From an uncultured bacterium (GTDB lineage: Bacteria; Fidelibacterota; Marinisomatia; Marinisomatales; TCS56), in assembly GCA_964490885.1 (NCBI GenBank), contig CAZBEL010000001.1:1-30715 (forward strand): a DNA stretch of 30,715 bases, given 5' to 3'. The position numbers and the translations under genes were made by a program. The notes beneath the pieces are model-generated. The model did not search any database and was not told the origin of the DNA. It saw only the letters and a list, made by a program, of their open reading frames with translations. Shown here piece by piece: positions 11,120 to 27,299 of this stretch; within the stretch, counting starts at the first letter, position 1, and the number at the start of each line of letters is the position of its first letter.

Positions 11120-11142
11120 CGATCAATAATCCTTCAATAGCA

Positions 11143-13385
<2,243 letters not shown>

Positions 13386-13396
13386 ATAAGTCGATC

Positions 13397-13504
13397 TTAA
13401 AACGGGCAGAATATCCCGAATTCAGTCAACACGGAGGCGAGTGGTTCTGATTCTACTGTAAAGCCAAACGCTTCAATCCGTCGTACCGCAACCCCGTCAG
13501 TCAT
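13397..13504 (-). CDS. Possible 35-aa micro-ORF between dnaN and dciA
   Basis: The ATG at 13504 overlaps the end of dnaN and reads MTDGVAVRRIEAFGFTVESEPLASVLTEFGIFCPF*, stopping 11 nt before the dciA start. I recognise no homology, so it may be chance. Confidence 0.2.
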   Translation of the reverse strand: MTDGVAVRRIEAFGFTVESEPLASVLTEFGIFCPF

Positions 13505-14612
13505 TCAATCTAATGGGCATTAATAGCATGGTGAGATCGCTATCATCCTTCTGCTCATCGGGGTAAAATAGACCGGCGCTGATGGGGGTCTTTAACTTCA
13601 CAATGACCTTTTCAGAATGCATGTGCGATAAGATATCGCGCAGGTAGTTAGCGTTGTACCCAATAATAAGCGGGTCGCCGGTATACTGAACGGGTAATTC
13701 TTCCTGGGCCTTAGAGGCTTTCTCTACGTCCTCCGTCGTAATGACCAATTTATCACCTTCCATTTTGAGGGCAATCTGGTGCGTGGAACGATTGGAGAAA
13801 ATGGACACTCGCCGAACCGCGGCCAACAACATCTCTCGGTCGACGACAAGTTCCTTGTCGTTATCGGTAGGGATAACACTCTCGTAGTCTGGAAAGCGTT
13901 CGTCGATGATCCTGGTGAAAATCTTGTCCGGCCCCAGGCTGGCGGTAAGGTGGTTATCCCCCATCCATATTTGGATGGGCTTATCACTACCCAACAAGGT
14001 GTTGATGAGATTCAGGAATTTATTAGGGATAATCACATCTCCCGTGAATTCTTCGGCCTGATAATCCTTGTATTGATAGCGCACCAGGCGGTGACCATCC
14101 GTGGCGGCAGCCGTTAAGCGGTCCTGCCCGAACTGGAAAAAGACCCCAGTCAAGGCTGGTTTCAACTCATCTTTGCTAACGGCAAAACTAGTGGAGTAAA
14201 TAATCTCCTTCAAAACACCGCTATCGATGCCGGTATTTTTGCGATTATCTACGTCTGGCATAGCAGGAAATTCCTCAGCCGCTTTACCCATTAGGTCATA
14301 ACGCCCAACATCCGTCAACAAATCTACATGGAGTTCGGAATCCACCGTAAGGGTAATTCTGGTATCGGGAAGTTCGTTGGTGATTTCCATGAGGGGTTGC
14401 AACGGAATAGCTGCTGACCCAGTTTCCTCGATGCTGGATTCAAGATTTGTTAAAATCGTGATTTCCAAATCAGTGCTGCGCAGTGTGGTGCCGTTTTCCT
14501 CAGCTGCAAAAAGCACACAATTCAATATGGGTAATGTTGACCGGGTTGGGGTTGCCCGGGATAATTTTTGTAGAGCAGATAATAGTTCGGTTTTTGATGT
14601 GGAAAGTTTCAT
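13497..14612 (-). CDS. dnaN: DNA polymerase III beta sliding clamp
   Basis: 371 aa with LRSTDLEI, KPALTGV, AATDGHRL, FPDYESVIP, IGYNANYL and a C-terminal LLMPIRL. Confidence 0.99.
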   Translation of the reverse strand: MKLSTSKTELLSALQKLSRATPTRSTLPILNCVLFAAEENGTTLRSTDLEITILTNLESSIEETGSAAIPLQPLMEITNELPDTRITLTVDSELHVDLLTDVGRYDLMGKAAEEFPAMPDVDNRKNTGIDSGVLKEIIYSTSFAVSKDELKPALTGVFFQFGQDRLTAAATDGHRLVRYQYKDYQAEEFTGDVIIPNKFLNLINTLLGSDKPIQIWMGDNHLTASLGPDKIFTRIIDERFPDYESVIPTDNDKELVVDREMLLAAVRRVSIFSNRSTHQIALKMEGDKLVITTEDVEKASKAQEELPVQYTGDPLIIGYNANYLRDILSHMHSEKVIVKLKTPISAGLFYPDEQKDDSDLTMLLMPIRLND

Positions 14613-14965
14613 TTAAATGTCCAGTTTGTTGTCCGTTTTTTTAGGCTTTAATGATTCTTAAAAAGCCTTCAATCTTACCTCGATATTGCTGTTATCACAA
14701 GTATTTTCACCATCCCATATGAGAGAAAACAACCGTTCCGTAATTTCTATTTCCAGCGAATTGTTAACTCTAATACTTAAGCTTACAGCTTTAAGAAATT
14801 GTTTATTATTTATTATCACTGTGGAAAAGGAGGTAAGTCTGTAATGAATTGGTCAATCTAATTCTATGATGAACGGCTAAGTAAAAGGGTTCATAATCTA
14901 CTTTATGTGGAAAAGTGAGTGAACAATGTGCATAACCTCTGTGATGGCTAGTAGAATCCCGATTA
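14613..14965. other. Candidate oriC: AT-rich intergenic region with a DnaA-box cluster
   Basis: Largest intergenic gap in the window. Hand count gives about 34% GC over 14641-14960 and about 22% over 14761-14820. It holds three same-orientation TTWTNCACA matches (14820-14828, 14906-14914, 14927-14935) plus degenerate copies (14918-14926, 14598-14606). Confidence 0.65.
14672..14700 (-). promoter_or_regulatory. Putative sigma70 promoter of dnaN
   Basis: On the minus strand: TTGTGA (14700-14695), 17 nt, TAAGAT (14677-14672). The -35 overlaps a DnaA-box-like TTGTGATAA. Confidence 0.4.
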
Positions 14966-16264
14966 TCATTGTGGAATCTGAATGAAAATTCGTTCCCGAG
15001 CATCACTTATCCACTTTGAATACCATTCCATGCGCTTCTGGTTAAGCGCCATGGCTTCGATTTCCGGCCAGTGGTCTTTTAGATTGGGCTTACCACCCGG
15101 CTTAACTCCTTCTAACCAGAATAAATGGTACCCGAAACTTGACCGCACTGGTCGGCTGCACTGATTCAGCTCCAATAAGTTTACCACCTGGGCTATTTCC
15201 GGAATAGGGGAATTCTTGGGATTGATCCATCCCAGGTCCCCCCCGATATCTTTTGTTTTTTCATCCTCAGAGTAGCGCTTAACGAGAGCGATAAAATCGT
15301 CGAGTGTTTCAGCGGAGTCTTTAAGGCTAAGCGCGTAGCTGTAAGCGCGGGATTCATCTTCTTCGGTGATTTGGGGTGTGATAAGGATGTGGCGAACGCG
15401 GATTTTATCCCCCATTTTTTCCTGGGTTTGAATGAGATGGTAGCCAAAGGGGGATTCCACAGGTGTACTGATTTCCCCCGCCGGGAGGGTAAAGGCCACC
15501 GATTCAAACTCAGGCACTAGGGAACCACGCCGTACCAGGCCCAAGGAACCACCGTTCTGACTGGATCCAGGGTCTTGGGAATACCGTTCTGCTAAGTCTT
15601 CGAAAGGTTCCCCGGCTAAAATGCGTTGGCGAATGCTGTCTAACTTCGCTAAGGCTTTACGCCGGGACCGCTCCCCTGGCTTAACCGGCACCAATAGATG
15701 GCGTAGTTTAACCATTGTGGGAAAATCCGATATGCTATCGCGATAGGTTTTGAAGAAATCCATCACCTCTTTTTTAGAAATGGTGATGGAGGACATGAGT
15801 TGTTGTTGGTATTTTTCGGTGATGAGCCGGTCTTTCATGTCCGACCAGAATTCGCGCCGGAACGATTTTAATGATTGTCCCAGTAGCTCCTCGGCGCGCG
15901 CTTCGCTTCCCGCATTGGCCACGAAAGATTCCATCTGCTGGTCAAGGGCTTGATTGACCTCCTTTTCTTCCACCTCCACCGAATCCAGCTTGGCCATTTC
16001 CAAAATTATTTTTTGGTCGATAAGTGACTGGAGAATTTCCTCTTGCATCTTGAGCAAGGCGTCCCGGTCCTGCACCGGATCGAGATTGCGCCGAAGGGCA
16101 GCCATACCTACCAACTGAGATACGTCACTCTTCAAAACAAGATTATCGTTTACAATGGCGGCGATACCGTCGATGATTTGGGATTGCTCTTCCTGGGCGT
16201 GGTATGTTCCCAGTAGGGCGGTGGTGACTAACAAAATGTTACCCAGGGTGCGGATCGATTTCAT
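14966..16264 (-). CDS. surA: SurA-like periplasmic chaperone/PPIase (N-domain + two PpiC domains)
   Basis: Signal peptide, IDGIAAIVND...VLKSD N-domain, and two parvulin domains (FEDLAERYSQDPGSSQNGGSLG...GYHLI; YSEDEKTKDIGGDLG...GYHLF). Confidence 0.88.
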   Translation of the reverse strand: MKSIRTLGNILLVTTALLGTYHAQEEQSQIIDGIAAIVNDNLVLKSDVSQLVGMAALRRNLDPVQDRDALLKMQEEILQSLIDQKIILEMAKLDSVEVEEKEVNQALDQQMESFVANAGSEARAEELLGQSLKSFRREFWSDMKDRLITEKYQQQLMSSITISKKEVMDFFKTYRDSISDFPTMVKLRHLLVPVKPGERSRRKALAKLDSIRQRILAGEPFEDLAERYSQDPGSSQNGGSLGLVRRGSLVPEFESVAFTLPAGEISTPVESPFGYHLIQTQEKMGDKIRVRHILITPQITEEDESRAYSYALSLKDSAETLDDFIALVKRYSEDEKTKDIGGDLGWINPKNSPIPEIAQVVNLLELNQCSRPVRSSFGYHLFWLEGVKPGGKPNLKDHWPEIEAMALNQKRMEWYSKWISDARERIFIQIPQ

Positions 16265-17061
16265 TTTAGATTTTCTGGAAATATTTCGATGGGGATCGTG
16301 TTTTTAAGGCTATCGAGGATTTGGTTGGCCAAGAGGGCAGAGCGCTGTTGAAAAATATATTGTTGAATTTCGTCGTAGACCTCATCTAAGCCCCGCGCGG
16401 TTCCTTGTTTGTACTTTTCTAGGATTTCGATGGTATGGTACCCATATGGCGTTTTAACCGGCCCCACAACCCTCCTGCGGGAGGCAAAGATGGCGTCATC
16501 AAGAGGTTCTAGAAGAGCGCCTTTTTTTACGGTGATTGCATTGACTCCGTAATCAGCTAAAAGTTTTTTTCGTTTCTCAGAGACACCGCTACGGAGCAGG
16601 ACAGATTTGATTTCCTGGGCCTTGCTTTTCGAATCCACCAAGAAGTGGAGTATTTTTGCCTCCTCGGTCTGGCGGGTGAAGCTGCTGCGGTGTTCCTCAT
16701 AGTAAGATTTGATATCCGCCGCTGATACTCCAATTCGTTGCTGGAGCAGAGACTGTAGGTAGGCCTTGCCGATTAGCTCCCGGCGGTAGTCGGACACGGC
16801 CTGTTGAAGCGTTTTATCCCGGTCATACCCTTGAGCCACGGCGGTTTGGAAAAGCACCTCCTGGTTAATCCATTGACTGACCACCTGGTTCTTATCAAAG
16901 TACTCGTTTTTGGGTGTAAGTTCCCAGGCGCGGGTGTCCTCCAGAGACAAAGTGGCTTTACCCACGCGAACCACGACAGGCTGGTCATTCTCTAAGGATG
17001 AAGAGCAGCCGAAGAATAGACTGAGCGATAGGGCGACAGGGATTAAAGGGGTTTTTAGCAC
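16261..17061 (-). CDS. PpiC/rotamase-type peptidyl-prolyl isomerase-like lipoprotein (degenerate parvulin domain)
   Basis: Lipobox-like LFFGC, VVVRVG N-domain, IKSYYEEH and GPVKTPYGYHTI. It has an ATGA overlap with surA. Confidence 0.78.
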   Translation of the reverse strand: MLKTPLIPVALSLSLFFGCSSSLENDQPVVVRVGKATLSLEDTRAWELTPKNEYFDKNQVVSQWINQEVLFQTAVAQGYDRDKTLQQAVSDYRRELIGKAYLQSLLQQRIGVSAADIKSYYEEHRSSFTRQTEEAKILHFLVDSKSKAQEIKSVLLRSGVSEKRKKLLADYGVNAITVKKGALLEPLDDAIFASRRRVVGPVKTPYGYHTIEILEKYKQGTARGLDEVYDEIQQYIFQQRSALLANQILDSLKNTIPIEIFPENLK

Positions 17062-17078
17062 GTCCGAAGTTACCTCTT

Positions 17079-20000
17079 TTAAGGATGAGAAAACAGACTC
17101 ACTATGGCTTCAGCAGCACCCCATGAATTATTCATATCTTTTGTGTTAACAAGTACTTGAGTGTATTTGACGGTTGTCTTTTTCCGCTCTTGCACTTCCC
17201 CCCAGGATTGTAGCGCAGTACGCACTTCCTTCGCTTGAGGTTCCGAAACCAGCCCTTTGTCCAGCTGGCAGGTTAGTCCTTTGGGCGTTATTTCCATAGT
17301 GCGGACGGGAGTATTTGTAAGCTTGGTCTGAAAGAGTGTAAGGCTGAGGAGGTTGACAACTTCGGAGGGCGGTGGCCCGAAGCGATCCTTGAGTTCTTGT
17401 TCAATGAGGTTAATATCCTCATTGGACGTTGCTGTGTTGAGGCGTTGGTAAAAGTAAAGGCGATCCTCTACAAGGGATATGTATTGGGGTGGGAGGTAAG
17501 CGTCGTCAGTTAGCTTTATAGTCGGTTTTGCAGGTGGGCTGATAGGAGCCTTCCCTTGCTGTTCGAGAACAGATTCAGATAGTAAATTGCAGTACATTTC
17601 AAACCCAATGGAAGCAATGTGACCGCTCTGCTCATAGCCAAACAAATTCCCGGGTCCGCGAATTTCCAAATCCTTTAAAGCGATTTCGTACCCTACCCCC
17701 AGGGAGGACAAACGCTCGATGGTTTTTAACCGCTGATAGGCCGGGTCGGTAAGCTTTAAACCCTTTGGAATCAATAAGTAACAGAAGGCTTGCCGGTTGC
17801 TGCGCCCGACGCGACCACGGATTTGGTATAGCTGGCTCAAGCCAAATTTATGGGCATTATTGATAATGATCGTATTAGCGTTTGAGACATCCAGTCCAGA
17901 TTCGACGATCACAGTGCAGAGCAGGATGTCTATTTCCCCAGCGAAAAAGGCAAGGATCGTATCTTCGAGCTTTCGGCTTGGCATTTTACCATGGGCGATT
18001 GCAACGGTGTGATGAGGAAATAGATCCATTAACTTTTCACAGTGGAAAGATAGGGCGTTGATATCGTTGTGAAGAAAATAGACCTGGCCGTTGCGTTGTA
18101 ATTCAAACTGTATGGGGTAGTAGATTTTTTTCCAGTCGAAATAGTGAACGCTCGTGCGAATTGGTAACCTTTCACGCGGGGGTGTCTGGAGTTGGCTCAC
18201 GGCACGAATGCCGACCAAGGCTTGTTGCAGGGTGCGCGGGATCGGCGTGGCTGTTAAAGTGAGAACATCCACCGTAGATTTTATCTCCTGCAAGCGTTGT
18301 TTATGTTTAACCCCGAAACGGTGTTCTTCATCGATGATTAAGAGCCCTAAAGATGGCGTCTGCACGTCCGGGGAAAGAAGGCGGTGGGTTCCTACGACGA
18401 TGTCCACATCACCTGTTGTTAAAGCGCGAAGAATTTGTTTCACTTCATCGCCAGGAGTGAACCGCGACAAGAGCGCAACCCGCACTCCCAGGGGTCCCAA
18501 GCGGCCCTTACAGGTGATATAGTGTTGATCGGCGAGGATAGTAGTGGGCGTTAGGAAAAAAACCGTTTTGCCAGTGGCGATGGCTTTCATAGCCGCTCGT
18601 AAAGCCACTTCTGTTTTACCGAAACCCACGTCTCCAATAAGGATTCGGTCCATGGGGCGTTCCGATAGCATGTCGGTGTAAATTTCCTTAATGGCCTGCT
18701 GTTGGTCGGGTGTTTCTTGGTAGGGGAAACTCTTTTCCAAGAGCCGGCACAATTCCATGTCAGCAGTGTAACGAAAGCCCCGAGGTTTATTCTTCGAAGC
18801 ATAATAAGCCACTAATTCATTTACGATCCTTTGAGCGCTCTGCCGGGACCGTTGGATCTGTTGTTGCCAGCGCTTGGTTCCCAAGCGTGAAAGGGTAACG
18901 GGACCCTTTTTGCTGGAGATGTAGCGATGGACTTTTGCGAAGTGATCGGGATGGACGTAGATAAAACCGCCGTCGGCGTATTCGATTTTCAGGCACTCCT
19001 GATGGCCAGTTTTAGTTTTGATTAGCTGGAGACCGCGGTAGATGCCGATACCATAATCACGGTGCACTACATAGTCTCCCCAATTTATGTCTTTTAGGTG
19101 GAAGGCGAACGGTTGGTCGCCGTAGGGATCGACATTAACCCAACGTGAGATGCTGTACTTGGGGACAGGCTTAACCTCAGAAAGGTCTAAACAGGCCAGG
19201 GAAAGATCCGCAGAATAGAAACCCTGGGGGATTCGCGAAGGGATAGTTGTTACTTTGAATGGCCATGTTGCGAATTCCTTACGCTTTAGTTCTGTCGTTC
19301 CAGTGAAGATGTAGACCTTTTTAACAGAAGCAGCCCTAAGTTTAGGCCAAAAGTCGGTGAGATTGAGGTTTTCACCATCGGGTGTTGCTATCCAGGGGTT
19401 GGTCCGGCAGGAGATCCGTACCCCATTACCGGTGGAAAGTTCTATGTGTTTATGGTTCTTGTGGACGTAAACGAAGTGGGCACCCCTGTTGGCCAGCAAC
19501 TCTCGATAGGTTCGTTGGGATGTTAGCGTTAACGCGTCCGCGGGAGGCAGCAGTTCAACGTTTTTTATTCGCTGCACCGATAGTTGAGAAATGGGATTGA
19601 ACCACCGAATGGACTCCACAGTGTTTCCGAAAAACTCCAGCCGCACGGGCCGCCGGGCATGGAGCAGAAAAATGTCTATGATCCCTCCTCGAATGGAGAA
19701 TGTCTTGGGCTGCTCAGTGCGGTCGACCTGTTCAAATCCCCAGGAAACCAAAGTTTTTGCCAGATCTCCCACGACGCATTCTTGACCCGTATGGATTTCT
19801 ATGCCTCGGGATGTGGCTGCAAGAGGGTCAGGCACTGGCTGCTGCAAGGCCTTTTCATCGGTAATAAAAAGGCCGCCACTTTTCCGTTTTAATGCATGGT
19901 AGCTTTCTGTCGTGTACCGTTCAGCCTCTAAAGCGAAACCGGAGACATCGGTAAAAGTGGATTGTAGAATAGGTATCCAATAAACGGATTTATGAAGCGT

Positions 20001-20246
20001 AGAAAGAGCGTGATGGTAAAAAGCCTCTGCTGACTGGTATTCAGGGCAAATAATGACGAATGCGCGGTATCTTTGACGGTAGACTGCAGCCAACGCTAAG
20101 ACTGCGGCGACCTCCGTCAGGCCTTCCAGGGTTACCGGTTCATTGCGAGACAGGTTTTGCACAAAAGCACGCCCCGGTGTTGAACGGAGGAGGCGGTCAA
20201 GGACTGGATTCAGGTGAGGAAAAGGCGTTTCACGTGAAACACTCAT
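17079..20246 (-). CDS. mfd: Transcription-repair coupling factor Mfd
   Basis: UvrB-like RGGIIDIF, RNAP-interaction domain GDYVVHxDYGIG, GDVGFGKTEVA, DEEHRFGV, QIRGRVGR and the TRG motif DLEIRGxGNLFG. Confidence 0.97.
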   Translation of the reverse strand: MSVSRETPFPHLNPVLDRLLRSTPGRAFVQNLSRNEPVTLEGLTEVAAVLALAAVYRQRYRAFVIICPEYQSAEAFYHHALSTLHKSVYWIPILQSTFTDVSGFALEAERYTTESYHALKRKSGGLFITDEKALQQPVPDPLAATSRGIEIHTGQECVVGDLAKTLVSWGFEQVDRTEQPKTFSIRGGIIDIFLLHARRPVRLEFFGNTVESIRWFNPISQLSVQRIKNVELLPPADALTLTSQRTYRELLANRGAHFVYVHKNHKHIELSTGNGVRISCRTNPWIATPDGENLNLTDFWPKLRAASVKKVYIFTGTTELKRKEFATWPFKVTTIPSRIPQGFYSADLSLACLDLSEVKPVPKYSISRWVNVDPYGDQPFAFHLKDINWGDYVVHRDYGIGIYRGLQLIKTKTGHQECLKIEYADGGFIYVHPDHFAKVHRYISSKKGPVTLSRLGTKRWQQQIQRSRQSAQRIVNELVAYYASKNKPRGFRYTADMELCRLLEKSFPYQETPDQQQAIKEIYTDMLSERPMDRILIGDVGFGKTEVALRAAMKAIATGKTVFFLTPTTILADQHYITCKGRLGPLGVRVALLSRFTPGDEVKQILRALTTGDVDIVVGTHRLLSPDVQTPSLGLLIIDEEHRFGVKHKQRLQEIKSTVDVLTLTATPIPRTLQQALVGIRAVSQLQTPPRERLPIRTSVHYFDWKKIYYPIQFELQRNGQVYFLHNDINALSFHCEKLMDLFPHHTVAIAHGKMPSRKLEDTILAFFAGEIDILLCTVIVESGLDVSNANTIIINNAHKFGLSQLYQIRGRVGRSNRQAFCYLLIPKGLKLTDPAYQRLKTIERLSSLGVGYEIALKDLEIRGPGNLFGYEQSGHIASIGFEMYCNLLSESVLEQQGKAPISPPAKPTIKLTDDAYLPPQYISLVEDRLYFYQRLNTATSNEDINLIEQELKDRFGPPPSEVVNLLSLTLFQTKLTNTPVRTMEITPKGLTCQLDKGLVSEPQAKEVRTALQSWGEVQERKKTTVKYTQVLVNTKDMNNSWGAAEAIVSLFSHP
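20226..20241. promoter_or_regulatory. parS centromere-like site 1
   Basis: CGTTTCACGTGAAACA is a 15/16 match to the palindrome TGTTTCACGTGAAACA. It lies in mfd codons 2-7 (SVSRET). Confidence 0.9.
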
Positions 20247-22144
20247 GTCCGGCGGCTCAACAAAACAGCCAAAACAGAGACATCGGCGGGCGAGACGCCC
20301 GAAATCCGCATCGCCTGGCCCAGGGTCTCTGGGCGGATGGTATTCAGCTTATCGCGAGCTTCCATGGATAGGCTGGTCACGGCGCGGTAGTCAAAAGAGG
20401 GTGGTATTTTTACCCGTTCTTGAGCTGATAGTCTTTTTATTTGCTGTTGTTGCCGGTGAATATAGCCGGCGTATTTAATCCTGGTTTCGGCTTCCAGGTA
20501 TAGTTCGTCCTGCAGGAAGGGTTCCCACCGGGATAGGTCTATGCCATCGAACAGACGCGAAGGTAAGCCTCCGATGGTGACTGCAGGGCGTTTTAAGATT
20601 TGTTTGGCCGGCGTTTTCTGATTGATGGGGGCTTCATTTAACACCTGAAGCAAGGGGTTAACTTCTTCTGGGATGACGGATTCATCCAAAGCCTGGATTA
20701 TTTTTTCTCCACAGGACAGCTTCGCCTCCAGATCTGCTAATACCGGCGCAGGAAGCAAATGATAGTCGGCCGCCTTTTTTAACAGCCGTTCGTCAGCATT
20801 GGAGTAGCGGAGAAGTATCCGGTACTCAGCGCGTGATGTGAACATGCGGTAAGGTTCAAAGGTGTCCTTGGTGATGAGATCGTCAATCAACACGCCGATA
20901 TAAGATTCTTCCCGACCCAGAGTGAAAGGTGGATCTTGCCCTTGAATTGTAGCGTTGATACCAGCGACTAGCCCCTGGACTGCAGCCTCTTCATACCCCG
21001 ATGTGCCGTTTATTTGACCGGCAAGGTAAAGACCCTTGAGAGCTTTCGACTCCAGGGTGGCTTTCAATTGCGAGGGCGGGAAAAAGTCGTATTCAATGGC
21101 GTAGCCGGGTCGATAAAAACGAACCTGTTCTAACCCTGGTAAGGCGCGGATGGCTTGGAGCTGAATTGACTCAGGGAGACTGGTTGAAAAACCATTGGTG
21201 TAGATTTGGTGGGAGTGGATCCATTCCGGTTCTAGAAAAAGCGTGTGCGAAGGCTGATGGGCGAAGCGTTGTATTTTATCTTCAATAGAAGGACAGTAAC
21301 GTGGTCCAACCCCATCGATATCCCCAGAAAAGAGGGGAGACAGGTGTAAGTTATTCCCAATGATTTCGTGGCACTGAGCGTTAGTTCTCACGGTATGGCA
21401 GGGAATGTTGGGCGGGTTGAAGTTCTTGGTCCGGTAAGAAAAGGGAACTGGCTTTTCATCGCCGTGAATGACCATTAGTTTGTTCCAATCGATCGTCTCT
21501 TTAATCAATCTGGGGGGGGTTCCGGTTTTGAGTCGTCCAGCAATTAACCCTCTACTTGTAAGCGCCTCGGTAAGACCGCGGCTGCTGTGCTCACCCATTC
21601 GTCCCGCCCTGATTTTGCGTTTTCCTATATGTATTAATCCGTTTAAGAAGGTTCCAGTAGTGAGAATTACGGCTTTGCTTCGGATTGCGCTTTTATCCCT
21701 TAGGACCACTCCCTCGATTCGTTCTCGATGATCCTGCAAATCGACGACTTCATCCTCTATAAGTGTAATGTTGGCAGATGTCGAAAGAAGCTTTCGTACA
21801 TGGGCCTCGTAGCACCGTTTATCTACCTGGGCACGAGGGGACCAAACTGCACGGCCCTTGGATCGGTTAAGGACTTTGAACTGTAAACCTGTCTGGTCTC
21901 CGATGTAGCCCATGACGCCTCCCAAGACGTCCAATTCACGAATCATCTGTCCTTTAGCAATGCCTCCGAGCGCAGGGTTACAGGACATACGCCCCAGAGC
22001 CTTTAAGTTCATTGTGATGAGGGCTACCGAACGCCCCAAATGGGCCGCGATTAACGCCGCTTCGATACCTGCGTGTCCTCCTCCAACCACTATAGCGTCA
22101 AAATCTGATGTCTTTAGTTGCACGTGAAACGGTTTATTTACCAA
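20243..22144 (-). CDS. mnmG: tRNA uridine-5-carboxymethylaminomethyl modification enzyme MnmG (GidA)
   Basis: VVGGGHAGIEAA, MSCNPALGGIAKG, RLKTGTPPRL, GPRYCPSIEDK and GQINGTSGYEEAA. The real start may be the GTG at 22123. Confidence 0.98.
   Translation of the reverse strand: MVNKPFHVQLKTSDFDAIVVGGGHAGIEAALIAAHLGRSVALITMNLKALGRMSCNPALGGIAKGQMIRELDVLGGVMGYIGDQTGLQFKVLNRSKGRAVWSPRAQVDKRCYEAHVRKLLSTSANITLIEDEVVDLQDHRERIEGVVLRDKSAIRSKAVILTTGTFLNGLIHIGKRKIRAGRMGEHSSRGLTEALTSRGLIAGRLKTGTPPRLIKETIDWNKLMVIHGDEKPVPFSYRTKNFNPPNIPCHTVRTNAQCHEIIGNNLHLSPLFSGDIDGVGPRYCPSIEDKIQRFAHQPSHTLFLEPEWIHSHQIYTNGFSTSLPESIQLQAIRALPGLEQVRFYRPGYAIEYDFFPPSQLKATLESKALKGLYLAGQINGTSGYEEAAVQGLVAGINATIQGQDPPFTLGREESYIGVLIDDLITKDTFEPYRMFTSRAEYRILLRYSNADERLLKKAADYHLLPAPVLADLEAKLSCGEKIIQALDESVIPEEVNPLLQVLNEAPINQKTPAKQILKRPAVTIGGLPSRLFDGIDLSRWEPFLQDELYLEAETRIKYAGYIHRQQQQIKRLSAQERVKIPPSFDYRAVTSLSMEARDKLNTIRPETLGQAMRISGVSPADVSVLAVLLSRRT
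22116..22131. promoter_or_regulatory. parS centromere-like site 2
   Basis: AGTTGCACGTGAAACG has an intact GTTNCACGTGAAAC core (14/16 to TGTTNCACGTGAAACA). It sits at the mnmE/mnmG junction. Confidence 0.75.
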
Positions 22145-23492
22145 CGCAAAAATGGCTGAATATGTTGTCTAGAATGTCCTCTGCTGTGGTTTTTCCCAAC
22201 AGACGGTCGATGGCCTCCAGGGCCTCTCGTAGATTAACTGCGATGAGTTCATAAGGGATCACTTTGGAGTCAAGCAGAGCCAACCCTTCTACGAGATGTT
22301 TTTGGAAAGTTTCCAAGGCATCGCGCTGGCGTTCGGTTGTAAGGCAGACATTTGACGAGAGGTTGGGGGATATTTTCAACATTTCGCGCAGCCGATTTTT
22401 CAGGGCGGTAATTCCTATCTTGTGGAGGGCTGACAGGCAGATATCAGCCCCCATCTTTACTTTGACAGTCTTTAATTCTGATTTATTTAAAAGGTCGATT
22501 TTGTTCAAAATAGTTAGTGTTTGTGCGTCCGTAAGTTCTTTATAATTAATATATTCTACATTGTTAAAAGGATCATTCAATATTAAGACTACATCGGCGT
22601 CGCGCATGTGCCTTTTTGTGCGCTCTACTCCTTCGCGTTCGATGGCGTTTTCACTATCGCGGATGCCGGCCGTATCGATTAACCTGATGGGTACACCTTC
22701 CAGGAAAAGGGAAACATCAATAGGATCGCGGGTGGTTCCAGGGATCGGGTGGGTAATGGCCCGATCAGAATCTGTAAGGGCATTTAATAGGGTGGACTTC
22801 CCAGTATTAGGTGGGCCGGCGATAACCACCAGCGCCCCTGTATTCAGCAAGCGGCCGTGATAGTACGAGGCTAAAAGCGCTTTCGATTTGCTGACCAGAG
22901 ACCTCAAACGGTCAGTAATTCTTTTGGGTAAACCGGGAGTGAAATCGGTTTCGGAGATATCTAATTCATACTCCACGTGGGCGATGAGTTCAATTAATTT
23001 CTCTTGTAGGTGCTTTAGTTTTTCTGATAGGGATCCCTGTAGTAAGCGGTAATTAAGTCGGCTGCTGATCTCTGATTGTGACTGAATAAGCGCCGAGACA
23101 GATTCGGCTTGCACGAGGTCTATCTTGCCGTTTAAAAATGCCCGCTGTGTAAATTCACCGGGCTCTGCCAATCGCGCCCCTAAGGTGCGGCACCGAGCGA
23201 CGATTTGTTGAACAATTACAGGACTACCGTGGCAAGAGAGTTCCACGATGTCTTCACCAGTATATGAGTTTGGTTCAGGGAAATAGGTTGCTATGCATTC
23301 ATCGAAAGGCACTCCGCCTTCATCGTGTACGTTCACCAGAGTGGCATGGCGCGGCTTCAAGAAGGAGGCATTACTTTCATCGCACAGATTGGCAACAATG
23401 AAGCCTGCTTGAGGACCGCTTAGACGAATGACAGCAAGGCCGCCAATGCCAAATGGCGTGGCCGGGGCGACAATCGTGTCGCTGGTCTTCAT
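22134..23492 (-). CDS. mnmE: tRNA modification GTPase MnmE (TrmE)
   Basis: TIVAPATP.G.GGLAVIRLSG, GEDIVELSCHG, GEFTQRAFLNGKIDL, GxPNxGKS, PGTTRD, DTAGIR, NKID and a C-terminal FCVGK. Confidence 0.98.
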   Translation of the reverse strand: MKTSDTIVAPATPFGIGGLAVIRLSGPQAGFIVANLCDESNASFLKPRHATLVNVHDEGGVPFDECIATYFPEPNSYTGEDIVELSCHGSPVIVQQIVARCRTLGARLAEPGEFTQRAFLNGKIDLVQAESVSALIQSQSEISSRLNYRLLQGSLSEKLKHLQEKLIELIAHVEYELDISETDFTPGLPKRITDRLRSLVSKSKALLASYYHGRLLNTGALVVIAGPPNTGKSTLLNALTDSDRAITHPIPGTTRDPIDVSLFLEGVPIRLIDTAGIRDSENAIEREGVERTKRHMRDADVVLILNDPFNNVEYINYKELTDAQTLTILNKIDLLNKSELKTVKVKMGADICLSALHKIGITALKNRLREMLKISPNLSSNVCLTTERQRDALETFQKHLVEGLALLDSKVIPYELIAVNLREALEAIDRLLGKTTAEDILDNIFSHFCVGK

Positions 23493-25171
23493 TTTTTCGA
23501 TTTAGTGGAGGCTACAGCTACCGTTGGGGCGGGTGTGAGGAGTTTCTGCTGGAGAATTGTGAGCACATTAAAAAGGGTGTAATATAGATTCAAACCCGAT
23601 GGGAATTGATTGAAGAGCAGTAAGAAAAAACCAGTCATGAAATAGGACATGAATTTTTGCTGACCAGAAGCCTGGGTGGGCATCATCTTCTGTTGAATAA
23701 ACATGGTGATCCCCATGATAATAGGTAGCACTGCAACGTGGTCGCCATAAATTGGAATGGTGAAGGGCAACTGCAGGATTGTGTCGGGACTGGAGAGGTC
23801 TTTGATCCACCAGACAAAGGGGGCGCCGCGCAGCTCAATGGTGGAACGAAAGACACGGAAGAGGGCGAACAGAAGCGGCATCTGTAAAAGAACCGGAAGG
23901 CAGCCGCCTAAGGGATTGACACCATGTTCTTTAAAGAGCTTCATTTGGGCCTGACTTAGGCGCTTTTGGTCGTTTTTATATTTTTCCTTTATCTCGGTTA
24001 GCAAGGGTTGGATTGCTTGCATTTTGCGGGTGGATTCGTAACTTTTTTTTGTCAGCGGGTAAACAACAATTTTAATAAGGATAGAAAAGATAATTAGCAC
24101 CACCCCGTAGTTAGGAATATAATTGTGCATCCAGGTTAGCAGAAAATGTACCCCTTTGGATATGGGCCGGATAATAGTGCCAAAACTGAGGATATGGTCT
24201 AAGTTAACCCCGATGCTTTTGACGCGTTTGTACTCCAATGGACCCAGATATAGAAGCGTGTTGTTGGCTAGCCGAGCTTCTTGTTGGAGACCGACGCTGA
24301 AAACCTTTTGCAAACCTTTCTGATAACCAGAGAGCAAAGCGCCGACGGCGGGCTGGTTCTGGGGGATTAGTGCAGCTACGAAATACTTGGTCCGGATGGC
24401 AACCCAATCGGTTTTTCCCACCACCTGTTCCACGTTCATTTCTTCGCGGCTTTTACTGGCCTTAGGGGAGTGTTGTTCACCGCCCTGGTATACATAAGCG
24501 TTGAAGTAGGCGTAGTCGTCTTTGCTGTTTTGTTCTGTTGTTGGCAGTCCTCCATCCCAAGCCAGGACATACGTTCCCTGGGAGAGTTCATCCCTTATCC
24601 CTGTTAGGTCTAAACGGACCTCGATGCGGTAATCGTCCGGATGAAAGGTCAAGGATTTGGTAACTGTCGCTCCAGCGTATTGGGTTTGGAATCGTAGTTC
24701 CTGGGATGCGTCAAGGACGATGAATTCGGTGTCTGGGTTTAGTAGTTGCCAGGGGCCGCCCAGAGCTGTTGGTTCTCCATCGTTAGAGATAAAACGAACT
24801 TGCAGGTTATTTTTATTTTCATCATCGACAAGATTAACTAACACCGAATCTAAGATGGTGTATTTCTTAAGATAGAAGGAGGTGAACGACCCACCGTTGC
24901 GCGTGCTAAGCGTAGCATCGTAGAGGGGGGTTTGGACTCTTATCCTGACCTCTGGTATTTTTTCTGGCTGGACAGCTTTTTCCATCACTTGTTCGGTGTC
25001 GTTAACGTTGGGGGCGAGTGTAATGGTAGTGTCTCGGGACCGGGTGGCGAGAGTGTCTACTGTTGTACCTGCACCGGGCGGGGGTTCGGGCGATATAATT
25101 TGGTAATACCAGGGTGTTAGGATAATAACCGCCGCTATGAGAACGAATGCTAAAAAGGTGCGTTTGTCCAT
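23489..25171 (-). CDS. yidC: Membrane protein insertase YidC (long form with periplasmic domain)
   Basis: MDKRTFLAFVL N-anchor, NYGVVLIIFSILIK, LFKEHGVNPLGGCLPVLLQMP, WIKDLSSPD and PSGLNLYY. Confidence 0.98.
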   Translation of the reverse strand: MDKRTFLAFVLIAAVIILTPWYYQIISPEPPPGAGTTVDTLATRSRDTTITLAPNVNDTEQVMEKAVQPEKIPEVRIRVQTPLYDATLSTRNGGSFTSFYLKKYTILDSVLVNLVDDENKNNLQVRFISNDGEPTALGGPWQLLNPDTEFIVLDASQELRFQTQYAGATVTKSLTFHPDDYRIEVRLDLTGIRDELSQGTYVLAWDGGLPTTEQNSKDDYAYFNAYVYQGGEQHSPKASKSREEMNVEQVVGKTDWVAIRTKYFVAALIPQNQPAVGALLSGYQKGLQKVFSVGLQQEARLANNTLLYLGPLEYKRVKSIGVNLDHILSFGTIIRPISKGVHFLLTWMHNYIPNYGVVLIIFSILIKIVVYPLTKKSYESTRKMQAIQPLLTEIKEKYKNDQKRLSQAQMKLFKEHGVNPLGGCLPVLLQMPLLFALFRVFRSTIELRGAPFVWWIKDLSSPDTILQLPFTIPIYGDHVAVLPIIMGITMFIQQKMMPTQASGQQKFMSYFMTGFFLLLFNQFPSGLNLYYTLFNVLTILQQKLLTPAPTVAVASTKSKK

Positions 25172-25186
25172 GTAATAGTAGCTGTT

Positions 25187-25441
25187 TTAGACGACCGGGT
25201 CGTACCCCCCCTCATGGAAGGGATGGCATTTAGAAAGCCGTCTTAGGGTGAGATAAAAAGCTCTAAAGAAGGATTTTGTTTTAAATGCTTCTAAAGCATA
25301 GGAAGAACAAGTAGGAGTAAACCGACAGTGGTTGCCTAACATGGGCGAGATAAGCCGTTGATATCCACGTATGGTGGTACCGACAAAGCGACACAAGAGG
25401 TCATCGCCTTTGCGGTAAAGCATTGAGCGCGTTGTGGACAC
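25187..25441 (-). CDS. yidD: Membrane protein insertion efficiency factor YidD
   Basis: [10 protein letters not shown]...[11 protein letters not shown]...[13 protein letters not shown]. An alternative ATG start lies at 25423. Confidence 0.95.
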
Positions 25442-25443
25442 TA

Positions 25444-25578
25444 CTAAGCCGTGAGGACTTTGCGGCCTTTTTTACGCCGCCTTTTGATAATGTTTCGGCC
25501 GGCTACTGTTTTCAGGCGTGCTCGAAAGCCGTGTTTGTTCTTGCGCTTGCGATTACTGGGTTGATAGGTACGTTTCAT
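25444..25578 (-). CDS. rpmH: 50S ribosomal protein L34
   Basis: Not in the ORF track. Hand translation gives [44 protein letters not shown] (44 aa), with an AAAGGA Shine-Dalgarno upstream. Confidence 0.99.
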
Positions 25579-25736
25579 TTTTATTCCTTTTAAAGCCGCC
25601 GAAAATAACGCTGAGAAGATAGAAAATACAAAGATTAAACCAAACTTAGGGACCCCACATAAAAGTATTTTACTTTCGGTTAAAATCTCCTTTGTGCCGT
25701 ACTGAATTAAAAGCTTAATTTTTAGAAAATCATTGT

Positions 25737-25756
25737 TGTGGATAACTTGTGGATAA
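25737..25756. promoter_or_regulatory. Tandem perfect DnaA boxes immediately upstream of dnaA
   Basis: TGTGGATAA-ct-TGTGGATAA (25737-25745 and 25748-25756), ending 6 nt before the dnaA ATG. Confidence 0.9.
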
Positions 25757-25762
25757 CCTAAA

Positions 25763-27106
25763 ATGCCTGTAGAAACTTTTTGGAGTGATGTAAAGACTCA
25801 GCTCAGAAAGCAACTGCCCGACCATGCTTTCAATACTTGGTTTGACCCTATACAATGTATTGGTGTGACCGATAATGAGTTGATTTTAGAGGTGCCGAAT
25901 CAATTTTTCTATGAATGGATAGAGAGCCATTACAAAGGAATTGTACAGCAAGCATTAAAAAGTAAAAACGCTGACTCTATTACAGTAAAATATACCGTCT
26001 CACCGGAAAGGTTAAAGAGAGAGGAAGAAAAACCTACCCAAGAACCGAATAGACCTTATGGCAACCGAAGCGTTTATCTTAATAAAAACCTAACCTTCTC
26101 GGCTTTTATTGAAGGCGATAATAATCGCTTTGCCAGAACAGCAGCCTTTACCGTAGCTGAGTCCCCCGGTAAGCAGGCCTTTAATCCTTTGATTATTTAT
26201 GGTGGTGTTGGGTTAGGGAAAACCCACTTACTCCATGCTATCGGGAATCACATTGTAGAAGTGTTGCCTCGCTTAAATGTGGTAATTGCCTCCAGTGAGA
26301 AATTTACCCTTGATTTCATCGCCTCGATTCAAAAGAACCGCACCGTGGAATTTTCAAGGTCTTATCGTAAGGCCGATGTTCTCCTGATCGACGATATTCA
26401 ATTCTTCCAGAAGAAAGAACAGACACAGGAGCAGTTTTTCCACACTTTTAATGAACTTTATCAGGCTGGTAAACAAATAGTATTAACGGCCGACCGGTAT
26501 CCAGGAGAAATGCACGGTTTACAGGACCGTTTATTGTCGCGCTTTGAATCTGGCTTGGCGGTGGATATTCAGCCACCGGATTTTGAAACTCGTGTGGCTA
26601 TCCTCATGGAGAAAGCCGAACAAAACGGACTAAGTCTGCCTTACGATATTGTGGAATTCGTGGCACTGCATATAAAGAAGAATGTGCGAGAGTTGGAAAG
26701 TACGATCATTCGTCTATTGGCCCATTCTTCTTTAACAAAGACTGAAATTGATTTCAATTTAGTTAGGAAAGTAGTTAGGGAAAGGGTGGGGACTAGGTTG
26801 GTGAGCGACCTAACTATGGGTGATATTATACGTCGTGTTTCTGAGGCGACGAAAGTTAGCGAGCGGGAGATTGTTGGGAATAGCCGGCGCATGCCCATCG
26901 CTGAAGCCCGGCAGATATCCATGTATCTTTGTCGGGAAATTCTGGGAACATCATTGGTAAGTATCGGCACTCATTTCGGTGGCCGAGACCACACCACTAT
27001 TTTACATGCCTGCCGTAAGATTGAAAAGAAGATAAAAGAAGACCCAAGGATAGAGCAAATGGTGGGTACCTTAAAACAGAGCTTAACCCTCCCTTTACAA
27101 GTATAA
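25763..27106 (+). CDS. dnaA: Chromosomal replication initiator DnaA
   Basis: AFNTWF domain [39 protein letters not shown] and the FGGRDHTT signature. Confidence 0.99.
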
Positions 27107-27174
27107 GGTACGATTTTTTTAGGTCACGAGGACAGTTCTCGTGCAACACAACACAAGTGGTAAGTAATCAATCC

Positions 27175-27203
27175 TTGACTCCACATTGAACATATACTAT
27201 ATT
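27175..27203 (+). promoter_or_regulatory. Sigma70-type promoter of the large secreted protein gene
   Basis: TTGACT (27175-27180), exactly 17 nt, then TATATT (27198-27203). An AAAGGAG Shine-Dalgarno at 27286-27292 lies 7 nt before the ATG at 27300. Confidence 0.65.
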
Positions 27204-27299
27204 GCACCTGATTTTTCATGTGGTGGGAGTACAAACACTGGAACCAAAACGGAATTCGTCCCCCGAAACCTATCTACTTAACCACAAAGGAGACCTCTC

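What the first reader, a model, noticed from the sequence alone, without database searches (positions are those of the whole stretch)
13497..27299. Rearranged origin locus: dnaA uncoupled from dnaN by an approximately 12-kb inversion, with oriC apparently left beside dnaN
Seen: dnaN-dciA-gyrB-gyrA (minus strand) start 11 kb from dnaA (plus strand), and dnaA is followed by an unrelated secreted-protein gene. Flipping the segment from about 14.97 kb to 27.1 kb restores the textbook order [..mnmG-mnmE-yidC-yidD-rpmH]<>[dnaA-dnaN-dciA-gyrB-gyrA]. The DnaA-box cluster with an AT-rich tract on the dnaN side sits at 14613-14965, resembling the usual dnaA-dnaN intergenic origin. No boxes follow dnaA, and dnaN appears to have its own promoter. 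Inference: the initiator gene and the unwinding origin were physically separated, and clamp/gyrase expression was uncoupled from the dnaA promoter.
Basis: partly seen in the sequence, partly recalled or inferred. Interest (0 to 1): 0.75.

Follow-up and report, generated by a model that had tools for sequence, protein, structure and literature searches.

The report
Replication origin beside dnaN, not dnaA
In this uncultured Marinisomatota (SAR406) bacterium the chromosome most likely starts replicating just upstream of the clamp gene dnaN, 11 kb from the initiator gene dnaA, because of an old inversion shared by the whole phylum; the layout is real but of a kind already known.

Summary
gyrA-gyrB-dciA-dnaN (minus strand) and dnaA (plus strand) are 11 kb apart. 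Between them lie two PPIase genes, mfd, mnmG, mnmE, yidC, yidD and rpmH. A signal-peptide protein follows dnaA.

This is neither a misassembly nor a recent event. The same layout occurs in nearly every family of the phylum (Ca. Neomarinimicrobiota/Marinisomatota). Outgroups keep the textbook gyrB-dciA-dnaN-dnaA | rpmH-yidD-yidC-mnmE-mnmG order. One ancestral inversion explains the difference.

The origin most likely sits in 14613-14965:
- It holds the densest DnaA-box cluster in the 2.07-Mb assembly.
- All its boxes point toward dnaN.
- The last box abuts the least stable intergenic 30-mer.
- The window's cumulative G-C minimum is at 14327.
- In three complete relatives the skew minimum maps to dnaN, not dnaA. 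One has the same layout (G063). In the other two dnaA lies 219 kb (G055) and 91 kb (G118) away.

The two perfect boxes at 25737-25756 travel with dnaA when it relocates, so they look like its autoregulatory operator.

An oriC next to dnaN and unlinked from dnaA is already known from cyanobacteria, and this scan has noted it before in another Marinimicrobia genome. The case is a new member of a known kind and of modest interest.

Side find: rnpA was not found anywhere in the window's order, although RNase P RNA is present.

The parts
8615..13385 (-). gyrA, gyrB and the DUF721/DciA-like gene: the distal part of the dnaN operon. recF is not present here.
   Evidence: NCBIfam hits. Many relatives have a further gene of about 1.1 kb between dnaN and dciA. 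No recF over the cut-off was found in the assembly.
13497..14612 (-). dnaN (sliding clamp), transcribed away from the candidate origin
   Evidence: TIGR00663, 3.9e-81. The window's cumulative G-C minimum lies at 14327, inside its 5' part.
14613..14965 (.). Candidate oriC: 353-bp, 67% A+T spacer between the PPIase gene and dnaN
   Evidence: Densest DnaA-box cluster in the assembly. The spacer is conserved in position, box orientation and AT tract across the phylum. The skew switch falls here in the window and at the homologous spacer in G063 and G055.
14820..14935 (-). Three DnaA boxes, all pointing toward dnaN: TTTTCCACA at 14820-14828, TTTTCCACA at 14906-14914 and TTATGCACA at 14927-14935. 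Weaker sites are GATTCCACA at 14970-14978(-) and TTATCCACT at 15007-15015(+).
   Evidence: The boxes are conserved islands in the alignment with G001. In 30 loci, 69 boxes point toward dnaN and 8 point the other way.
14790..14819 (-). AT-rich trinucleotide tract (GTG ATA ATA AAT AAT AAA ...) directly after the last box: candidate DnaA-trio/DUE
   Evidence: Second least stable 30-mer of the window and the least stable intergenic one. The tract is identical in G001. Relatives carry TTA/CTA repeats at the same place, like the C. difficile oriC2 trio (PMC7561715).
14672..14700 (-). Candidate dnaN promoter: -35 TTGTGA at 14695-14700, 17-nt spacer, -10 TAAGAT at 14672-14677. It is followed by a 5' leader with a hairpin at 14643-14668.
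   Evidence: Coordinates. The promoter and leader block is essentially identical between the window and G001 (one substitution), while the roughly 75 nt upstream of it is diverged. By my own reading of the sequences, TTGnnn-N16-18-TAnnnT recurs in most relatives; this was not tallied formally. The generic promoter scan did not list it (8 of 12 matches).
14966..25578 (-). Ten-kilobase block of PPIase, PPIase, mfd, mnmG, mnmE, yidC, yidD and rpmH, transcribed toward the candidate origin and therefore head-on to the rightward fork
   Evidence: Gene identities. Plus-strand GC skew is +0.094 here against -0.075 for gyrA-dnaN, although both are on the same coding strand. Coding-strand GC3 skew of these genes is negative in the phylum but about zero or positive in other phyla. 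parS-like sites lie at 20226-20241 and 22116-22131.
25579..25762 (.). rpmH-dnaA divergent spacer (184 bp, 68% A+T) with a tandem pair of perfect DnaA boxes at 25737-25756 (TGTGGATAA ct TGTGGATAA), ending 6 nt before the dnaA ATG. It is probably the dnaA autoregulatory operator.
   Evidence: It is the only such tandem pair in the assembly. A similar pair lies upstream of dnaA in G118, G055, G045 and G128, where dnaA has moved away from rpmH.
25763..27106 (+). dnaA, about 10.8 kb from the candidate origin
   Evidence: TIGR00362, 4.5e-156.
27300..30715 (+). Large signal-peptide protein with choice-of-anchor J and D domains, in the slot after dnaA (runs off the contig)
   Evidence: G001 has the same neighbour.

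Best explanation
The window holds the origin region of a Marinisomatota (Ca. Neomarinimicrobiota, SAR406) chromosome.

In an ancestor of the phylum, one inversion had one end in the dnaA-dnaN spacer and the other end downstream of the rpmH...PPIase block. This turned the textbook order gyrA<gyrB<dciA<(recF)<dnaN<dnaA | rpmH>...>mnmG into rpmH>(rnpA)>yidD>yidC>mnmE>mnmG>mfd>PPIase>PPIase>[spacer]>dnaN>...>gyrA, with dnaA left divergent from rpmH.

The unwinding half of the old origin stayed with dnaN. It consists of co-oriented DnaA boxes, then an AT-rich trinucleotide tract, then the dnaN promoter, and it lies at 14613-14965.

Inferred mechanism: DnaA made from a gene 10.8 kb away binds boxes 14927, 14906 and 14820. 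It then extends onto the AT tract at 14790-14819 and opens the duplex there. Forks leave in both directions. The leftward fork runs with dnaN-gyrA, and the rightward fork meets the rpmH...PPIase block head-on.

The tandem perfect boxes at 25737-25756 act mainly as the dnaA operator.

Shown here: the gene order, its conservation, the box clusters and their orientation, and the skew switches. Inferred: DnaA binding, the unwinding site and the role of the operator.
For: Layout across the phylum:
- Wherever both genes share a contig, dnaN and dnaA are divergent and 7-15 kb apart. This holds in the window's order (about 28 genomes) and in most families of the phylum.
- The same intervening genes were found in 20 fetched loci.
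- Outgroups have the textbook order.

When dnaA has moved away:
- dnaA is elsewhere in G118 (91 kb), G055 (219 kb), G139 and G124 (25-33 kb), and in G045, G128 and G150 (other contigs).
- In all of these the PPIase>spacer>dnaN linkage and its boxes remain.
- dnaA takes its tandem box pair with it.

Boxes and duplex stability:
- In 30 loci, 69 boxes in the dnaN spacer point toward dnaN and 8 point the other way.
- The window's cluster is the densest in the 2.07-Mb assembly.
- The least stable intergenic 30-mer abuts the last box.
- The boxes and the tract are conserved islands in the alignment with G001.

Skew:
- Window: the cumulative G-C minimum is at 14327. The contrast of 0.169 between two segments on the same coding strand was matched by none of 38 comparable window pairs on other contigs.
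- G063 (complete, same layout): the minimum is at 2,774,000-2,777,000, which is dnaN and its spacer. It is not at rpmH-dnaA, 13 kb further on.
- G055 (complete): a clean V with its minimum at 1.195-1.200 Mb. GC3 regression puts the best origin at 1,191,000-1,193,000 (r = 0.73). The GC3 sign flips between dnaN and the PPIase gene. There is no inflection at dnaA at 972 kb.
- G118 (complete): the minimum is at 435-455 kb (dnaN is at 434 kb), not at dnaA at 526 kb.

Origin proximity: the only parS site with at most 1 mismatch in the assembly lies at 20226.
Against: - Nothing here shows DnaA binding or unwinding.
- The window's boxes at the dnaN side are all imperfect, while the only perfect ones are upstream of dnaA.
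- With the origin at dnaN, nine genes including rpmH and yidC are head-on to replication. That orientation is usually selected against. An origin at rpmH-dnaA would make every gene co-directional.
- The trio pattern in the window is marginal: three NTN triplets with no spacer. A BUS-type scan does not separate the two spacers well.
- Two members of the window's own order (G143 and G102) have skew too weak to place an origin. The clear skew evidence therefore comes from other orders and classes.
- In G055 the strongest box cluster is upstream of dnaA, not upstream of dnaN.
- The genome is a fragmented MAG, so no genome-wide skew is possible.
Confidence: 0.75

Rival explanations
1. The origin is the rpmH-dnaA spacer (25579-25762), as in Pseudomonas-type origins upstream of dnaA. 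On this reading the dnaN-side boxes only regulate dnaN.
For: - It holds two perfect tandem boxes with a 2-bp gap, the arrangement typical of unwinding modules. They point into a 68% A+T stretch.
- The fourth least stable 30-mer of the window lies there.
- This placement would make all genes of the region co-directional with replication.
Against: - The spacer is only 184 bp and must also hold the rpmH and dnaA promoters.
- The box pair ends 6 nt before the dnaA ATG.
- The pair moves with dnaA in G118, G055, G045 and G128. In G055 and G118 the skew shows no switch at dnaA.
- In G063, which has the same layout, the minimum is at dnaN and lies 13 kb before this spacer.
- The window's own G-C minimum is at 14327.
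Confidence: 0.1
2. The origin is split and acts over a long range. The dnaA-proximal box pair (an oriC1 remnant) and the dnaN-proximal module (oriC2) cooperate by looping across 10.8 kb.
For: - The ancestral layout resembles bipartite origins, which have box clusters on both sides of dnaA (PMC4285127).
- Both clusters are conserved through the phylum.
- All boxes in both spacers lie on the same strand.
Against: - Known bipartite origins span at most about 2 kb (PMC4285127).
- Several lineages have moved dnaA and its pair 25-219 kb away, or to other contigs, and kept the dnaN module. The pair therefore cannot be an obligatory part of the origin.
Confidence: 0.1
3. The dnaN-side cluster is only a DnaA-controlled operator or a DnaA-titrating box cluster, and the true origin lies off this contig.
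For: - DnaA-box clusters outside oriC exist in model bacteria (my own knowledge; see PMC4447404 listed).
- The contig is only 30.7 kb of an 85%-complete MAG.
Against: - The skew minimum lies inside the contig, and at the homologous place in three complete relatives.
- The parS sites are on this contig.
- No denser box cluster exists elsewhere in the assembly.
Confidence: 0.04
4. The layout is an assembly artefact (a chimeric join or a false inversion).
For: The source is a fragmented metagenome bin.
Against: - The order is the same in about 28 genomes of the order and in most families of the phylum, from independent assemblies that include closed genomes.
- Logan contigs bridge 13371-16022 and 24967-26493.
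Confidence: 0.01

Closest known systems
Bacillus subtilis incC / Clostridioides difficile oriC2 (the dnaA-dnaN intergenic unwinding region with the basal unwinding system)
   Same: It lies directly upstream of dnaN. Co-oriented DnaA boxes are followed within a few bases by an A/T trinucleotide run and an unstable AT-rich stretch. Relatives carry CTA/TTA repeats very like the C. difficile trio 5'-CACCTACTACTATTAC...-3' (PMC7561715).
   Different: dnaA is not the upstream neighbour; a PPIase gene reading into the spacer is. The partner box cluster upstream of dnaA is 10.8 kb away instead of about 1.4 kb. In the window itself the trio run is degenerate (ATA ATA A ATA ATA).
Cyanobacterial oriC next to dnaN
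   Same: The origin is adjacent to dnaN and unlinked from dnaA. The prevalent box variant is TTTTCCACA (DoriC 10, PMC6323995), and the window has two TTTTCCACA boxes.
   Different: It is a different phylum with a different flanking gene. Here dnaA is still only 11 kb away, and the layout can be traced to a single inversion of the textbook cluster.
Escherichia coli oriC (gidA/mnmG-mioC), about 42 kb from dnaA
   Same: [quoted passage not shown]
   Different: In E. coli dnaA-dnaN-recF-gyrB stayed together and oriC moved next to mnmG.
Earlier cases in this scan in which oriC stays with dnaN after an old inversion (another Marinimicrobia genome, gut Clostridia, a Bdellovibrio relative)
   Same: The reading is the same: an AT-rich spacer with boxes in front of dnaN, dnaA displaced, and the layout shared by a clade.
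   Different: Those are unchecked AI notes on other DNA. This report adds the phylum-wide survey, the outgroup polarity and the skew tests in three complete genomes.

Membership tests
DnaA-dependent chromosomal origin (oriC) | Cluster of at least three DnaA boxes less than 100 bp apart on average (rule quoted in PMC7561715) | tested here: met
   Boxes at 14820, 14906 and 14927, plus 15007, each with at most 1 mismatch. This is the densest cluster in the 2.07-Mb assembly. TTWTNCACA is enriched, 9 against 2.4 expected.
DnaA-dependent chromosomal origin (oriC) | AT-rich, helically unstable unwinding element next to the boxes | tested here: met
   14790-14819 is the least stable intergenic 30-mer of the window and abuts box 14820. 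The spacer is 67% A+T against 51% for the window as a whole.
DnaA-dependent chromosomal origin (oriC) | Leading/lagging strand composition switch at the site | tested here: met
   The window's minimum is at 14327. At the homologous site, G063 and G055 show the switch, and G118 shows it within about 20 kb. G143 and G102 are uninformative.
DnaA-dependent chromosomal origin (oriC) | DnaA binding, DnaA-dependent unwinding, autonomous replication | not testable with these tools
   This needs purified DnaA with P1/KMnO4 or strand-separation assays, or a minichromosome test.
Basal unwinding system (DnaA box(es) + spacer of at most 16 bp + at least 3 DnaA-trios; PMC8287927) | A box pointing at three or more NAN (top-strand NTN) triplets within 16 bp | tested here: inconclusive
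   The window passes only minimally: TTTTCCACA with no spacer, then GTG ATA ATA. In relatives the pattern is clear, with TTA TTA TTA CTA or CTA CTA CTA TTA after a box plus a degenerate second box. The pattern also occurs by chance in AT-rich DNA: the rpmH-dnaA spacer scores similarly.
Bipartite oriC (B. subtilis, H. pylori, C. difficile type) | Two box clusters separated by a short spacer gene, usually dnaA, spanning up to about 2 kb in total (PMC4285127) | tested here: not met
   The clusters are 10.8 kb apart and separated by nine genes, not by dnaA. In relatives the dnaA-side pair can lie 25-219 kb away.
[quoted passage not shown] | dnaA immediately followed by dnaN on the same strand, with rnpA after rpmH and recF after dnaN | tested here: not met
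   dnaN is 11 kb away on the other strand. There is no room for rnpA between rpmH and yidD, and none was found in the assembly. No recF was found over the cut-off.

The most novel reading that the evidence does not exclude
The phylum-wide arrangement may be functional rather than a frozen accident. A 10-14 kb array that includes rpmH, yidC and mfd itself is transcribed head-on into the origin. This could help to open or to time the origin, or the dnaA-side box pair and the dnaN-side module could work together over 11 kb as a stretched bipartite origin.
Probability: 0.1. Interest if true: 0.6.

Novelty: new member of a known kind. Interest (0 to 1): 0.3.

Why it matters
This gives a well-supported origin assignment for Marinisomatota/SAR406, an abundant ocean phylum with almost no experimental genetics. 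That is useful for growth-rate estimates from metagenome coverage (peak-to-trough ratio), for orienting closed genomes, and for origin databases that tend to anchor on dnaA.

It also adds a case, traceable to a single inversion, in which the unwinding module of oriC stays with dnaN while dnaA keeps only its operator. This supports the view that the dnaN-proximal module is the core of the ancestral origin.

The conserved head-on block next to the origin is a small puzzle for ideas about replication-transcription conflict.

Tried and rejected
- Genome-wide skew of the window's own genome is impossible: it has 425 contigs and the window is the longest one.
- Skew in G143 (same order, closed genome, 400 kb fetched) and G102 (100 kb) was too weak to place any origin, by cumulative skew, by GC3 regression or by gene orientation.
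- A BUS-type scan (box, spacer of at most 16, NTN runs) gave longer runs toward dnaN than in the reverse orientation (mean 4.3 against 2.1). It scored the rpmH-dnaA spacer almost as well, so I do not lean on it.
- The generic promoter and terminator scan found nothing above shuffles and missed the conserved dnaN promoter.
- Rfam found no known RNA in the window.
- In G055, the mfd-proximal divergent spacer near the all-site skew minimum (1,200,173-1,200,399) has no boxes with at most 1 mismatch. A 3-box group at 1,200,768 is inside a gene. I therefore rejected this spacer as the origin.
- A literature search for Marinimicrobia with dnaA and origin of replication returned nothing.
- Misassembly is rejected.

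Full report
**What is in the window.** The window is the whole longest contig (30,715 bp) of a fragmented metagenome bin with 425 contigs, 2.07 Mb and 85% completeness. NCBIfam profiles identify the following on the minus strand:
- gyrA 8615-11119
- gyrB 11143-13113
- a DUF721/DciA-like gene 13110-13385
- dnaN 13497-14612
- then, after a 353-bp spacer, two SurA/PrsA-like PPIases 14966-17061
- mfd 17079-20246
- mnmG 20243-22144
- mnmE 22134-23492
- yidC 23489-25171
- yidD 25187-25441
- rpmH 25444-25578

A 184-bp spacer follows, and then dnaA lies on the plus strand at 25763-27106. After dnaA comes a large protein with a signal peptide and choice-of-anchor J/D domains.

**DnaA boxes.** Boxes with at most 1 mismatch to TTATCCACA cluster at 14820, 14906 and 14927 (all on the minus strand, so all pointing toward dnaN) and at 15007. 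The only perfect boxes are a tandem pair at 25737 and 25748, ending 6 nt before the dnaA start. TTWTNCACA is enriched in the window, with 9 sites against 2.4 expected and none of 100 shuffles reaching 9. Five of the nine sites fall in the two spacers. In the whole assembly, the four-box group at 14820 is the densest cluster and the tandem pair is unique.

**Not an artefact and not recent.** Record titles of the nearest loci name the group Candidatus Neomarinimicrobiota (Marinisomatota, SAR406).
- In about 28 genomes of the window's order, dnaA and dnaN share a contig, are divergent, and lie 7-12.5 kb apart.
- A survey of 150 genomes of the phylum finds the same divergent pair, 11-15 kb apart, in most families.
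- Twenty fetched loci show the same intervening genes in the same order.
- Logan contigs from two microbial-mat runs cover 13371-16022 and 24967-26493 with 0-1 differences. These runs may be the source samples, so the synteny is the stronger argument.

Outgroup loci keep gyrB<dciA<dnaN<dnaA | rpmH>yidD>yidC>mnmE>mnmG. They come from Ignavibacteriaceae, Margulisbacteria, Acidobacteria, Methylococcales and Pseudomonadales. This is the conserved cluster described in the literature (PMC4285127). The Marinisomatota order is therefore derived. The event belongs to the ancestor of the phylum, not to this genome.

**What stays together.** In several lineages dnaA has moved again:
- 25-33 kb away in G139, G124 and G152
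- 91 kb away in closed G118
- 219 kb away in closed G055
- onto other contigs in G045, G128 and G150
- locally inverted in G082

In all of these the array ...mnmG>mfd>PPIase>[spacer]>dnaN>dciA>gyrB>gyrA is intact. The spacer still carries boxes pointing toward dnaN, followed by an A/T trinucleotide run. The relocated dnaA genes of G118, G055, G045 and G128 carry the tandem pair (TGTGGATAA or TGTGAATAA, a 2-bp gap, then the same again) shortly upstream of their start. G139 and G150 keep a single clear box, and G082 has none. The pair behaves as part of the dnaA gene, most simply as its autoregulatory operator. The dnaN-side module behaves as a fixed chromosomal site.

**Anatomy of the dnaN-side spacer.** Read toward dnaN, the spacer has four parts: boxes in one orientation, a last box, an A/T trinucleotide tract immediately or within about 15 nt, and then a sigma-70-like promoter with a leader.
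- Across 30 loci, 69 boxes point toward dnaN and 8 point away. In the rpmH-dnaA spacer, 42 point toward rpmH and 1 toward dnaA.
- In relatives the tract reads TTA TTA TTA CTA or CTA CTA CTA TTA, after a good box plus a degenerate second box. This is the top-strand form of the DnaA-trio described for C. difficile oriC2 (5'-CACCTACTACTATTAC...-3', PMC7561715) and for the basal unwinding system (PMC8287927).
- In the window and its close relatives the tract is ATAATAAATAATAA. This satisfies the published search pattern only minimally, so I call BUS membership inconclusive for the window itself.
- The tract at 14790-14819 is the least stable intergenic 30-mer of the window.
- Against the same-genus genome G001, the boxes, the tract and the promoter-plus-leader block are conserved islands, while the sequence between them has diverged.
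- The promoter is TTGTGA-N17-TAAGAT at 14672-14700. By my reading, comparable -35/-10 pairs recur in most relatives. dnaN does appear to have its own promoter.

**Where the strands switch.**
- Window: cumulative G-C reaches its minimum at 14327. Skew is -0.075 over gyrA-dnaN and +0.094 over the PPIase-rpmH block. Both segments are transcribed from the same strand, so transcription cannot explain the flip. None of 38 comparable window pairs on other long contigs shows as large a contrast.
- G063 (closed, same layout as the window): a V-shaped cumulative skew with its minimum at 2,774,000-2,777,000. dnaN is at 2,774,263-2,775,369. The rpmH-dnaA spacer lies 13 kb beyond the minimum.
- G055 (closed, strong skew): the minimum is at 1.195-1.200 Mb. 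A regression of third-position skew on leading/lagging status peaks at 1,191,000-1,193,000 (r = 0.73). The plus-strand GC3 sign flips between dnaN and the PPIase gene. The skew passes dnaA at 972 kb without inflection.
- G118 (closed): the minimum is at 435-455 kb, next to dnaN (434 kb) and far from dnaA (526 kb).
- G143 and G102, both of the window's order, have skew too weak to say anything.

In addition, mfd, mnmG, mnmE and yidC have negative coding-strand GC3 skew across the phylum (-0.07 to -0.18). The same genes average -0.04 to +0.07 in other phyla. This fits long residence on the lagging strand. The related genomes are not independent samples, so I count this only as support.

The best parS-like sites of the assembly lie at 20226 and 22116, which marks the contig as origin-proximal.

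**Reading.** The most likely account is that the unwinding module of an ancestral dnaA-dnaN origin stayed with dnaN when an inversion turned dnaA and the rpmH block around. The origin is then at 14613-14965, with unwinding at or near 14790-14819. dnaA, 10.8 kb away, keeps its own operator. dnaN-dciA-gyrB-gyrA is expressed from its own promoter. I put this at 0.75.

**Main rival.** An origin in the rpmH-dnaA spacer has the perfect boxes and the gene-orientation argument in its favour. The mobility of the pair with dnaA and all four informative skew profiles count against it. A stretched bipartite origin cannot be excluded for genomes in which the two sites are 11 kb apart, but it cannot be obligatory given the relocations.

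**Novelty.** Origins next to dnaN and unlinked from dnaA are the rule in cyanobacteria (PMC6323995). Separation of oriC from dnaA is classical for E. coli (PMC4285127, PMC8287927). This scan has already noted the same reading in another Marinimicrobia genome and in other clades. I found no paper on the origin of this phylum. The case is a new member of a known kind. It is sound, useful for annotation and growth-rate inference, and not surprising to a specialist. The one odd feature is the conserved 10-14 kb head-on array, which includes mfd, directly beside the origin.

**Seen in passing.** RnpA was not found in the window's genome or in 16 other genomes of its order. It was found in 61 of 64 genomes elsewhere in the phylum. 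RNase P RNA is present in the order. This deserves its own follow-up.

Noticed in passing
window 25441-25447 (yidD/rpmH junction); G000:C52:3832-4237: rnpA (RNase P protein) is missing between rpmH and yidD. With PF00825/TIGR00188 it was not found in this genome or in 16 other genomes of the same order (8 families, several 96-99% complete, one closed). It was found in 61 of 64 genomes of the rest of the phylum. Type-A RNase P RNA is present in G000, G001, G098 and G143. This suggests order-wide loss or extreme divergence of RnpA with the RNA kept.
   Followed up: partly
window 20226-20241 and 22116-22131: parS-like sites lie inside the start of mfd and of mnmG (1 and 2 mismatches to TGTTNCACGTGAAACA; 0.05 expected by chance). 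20226 is the only site with at most 1 mismatch in the 2.07-Mb assembly. G055 has two similar sites at about 1,200,140 and 1,200,330, 7 kb from its dnaN.
   Followed up: partly
window 13386-13496: There is no recF between dnaN and the DciA-like gene, and none over the cut-off anywhere in the assembly. Many relatives have a gene of about 1.1 kb in that slot, which I did not identify.
   Followed up: partly
window 14613-14671: The dnaN leader downstream of the candidate promoter differs from the same-genus genome G001 by one substitution until just before the ATG. It contains a hairpin (14643-14668, stem AGGCTTT/AAAGCCT) followed by an A run. It may be a regulatory leader. There is no Rfam match.
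   Followed up: no
window 14966-25578: If the origin is at the dnaN spacer, nine genes including rpmH, yidC and mfd (the factor that clears stalled RNA polymerase) are transcribed head-on toward the origin. This orientation is conserved across the phylum.
   Followed up: partly
window 27148-27282: The spacer after dnaA shows a dense patch of differences and a 1-nt insertion in a contig of run X2. This indicates a second strain that differs mainly in this spacer.
   Followed up: no
G158:C2:1107879-1108986: dnaN of this near-closed relative matches in two pieces (profile positions 1-152 and 151-367). This could be a frameshift or an assembly error.
   Followed up: no
L102-L110 (box about 80-90 bp upstream of the last box): The second-to-last box is followed by a conserved TAAAGT (TTTTCCACA-TAAAGT) in many members of the order. 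It sits a fairly constant 78-89 bp from the last box, which suggests phased DnaA sites.
   Followed up: no
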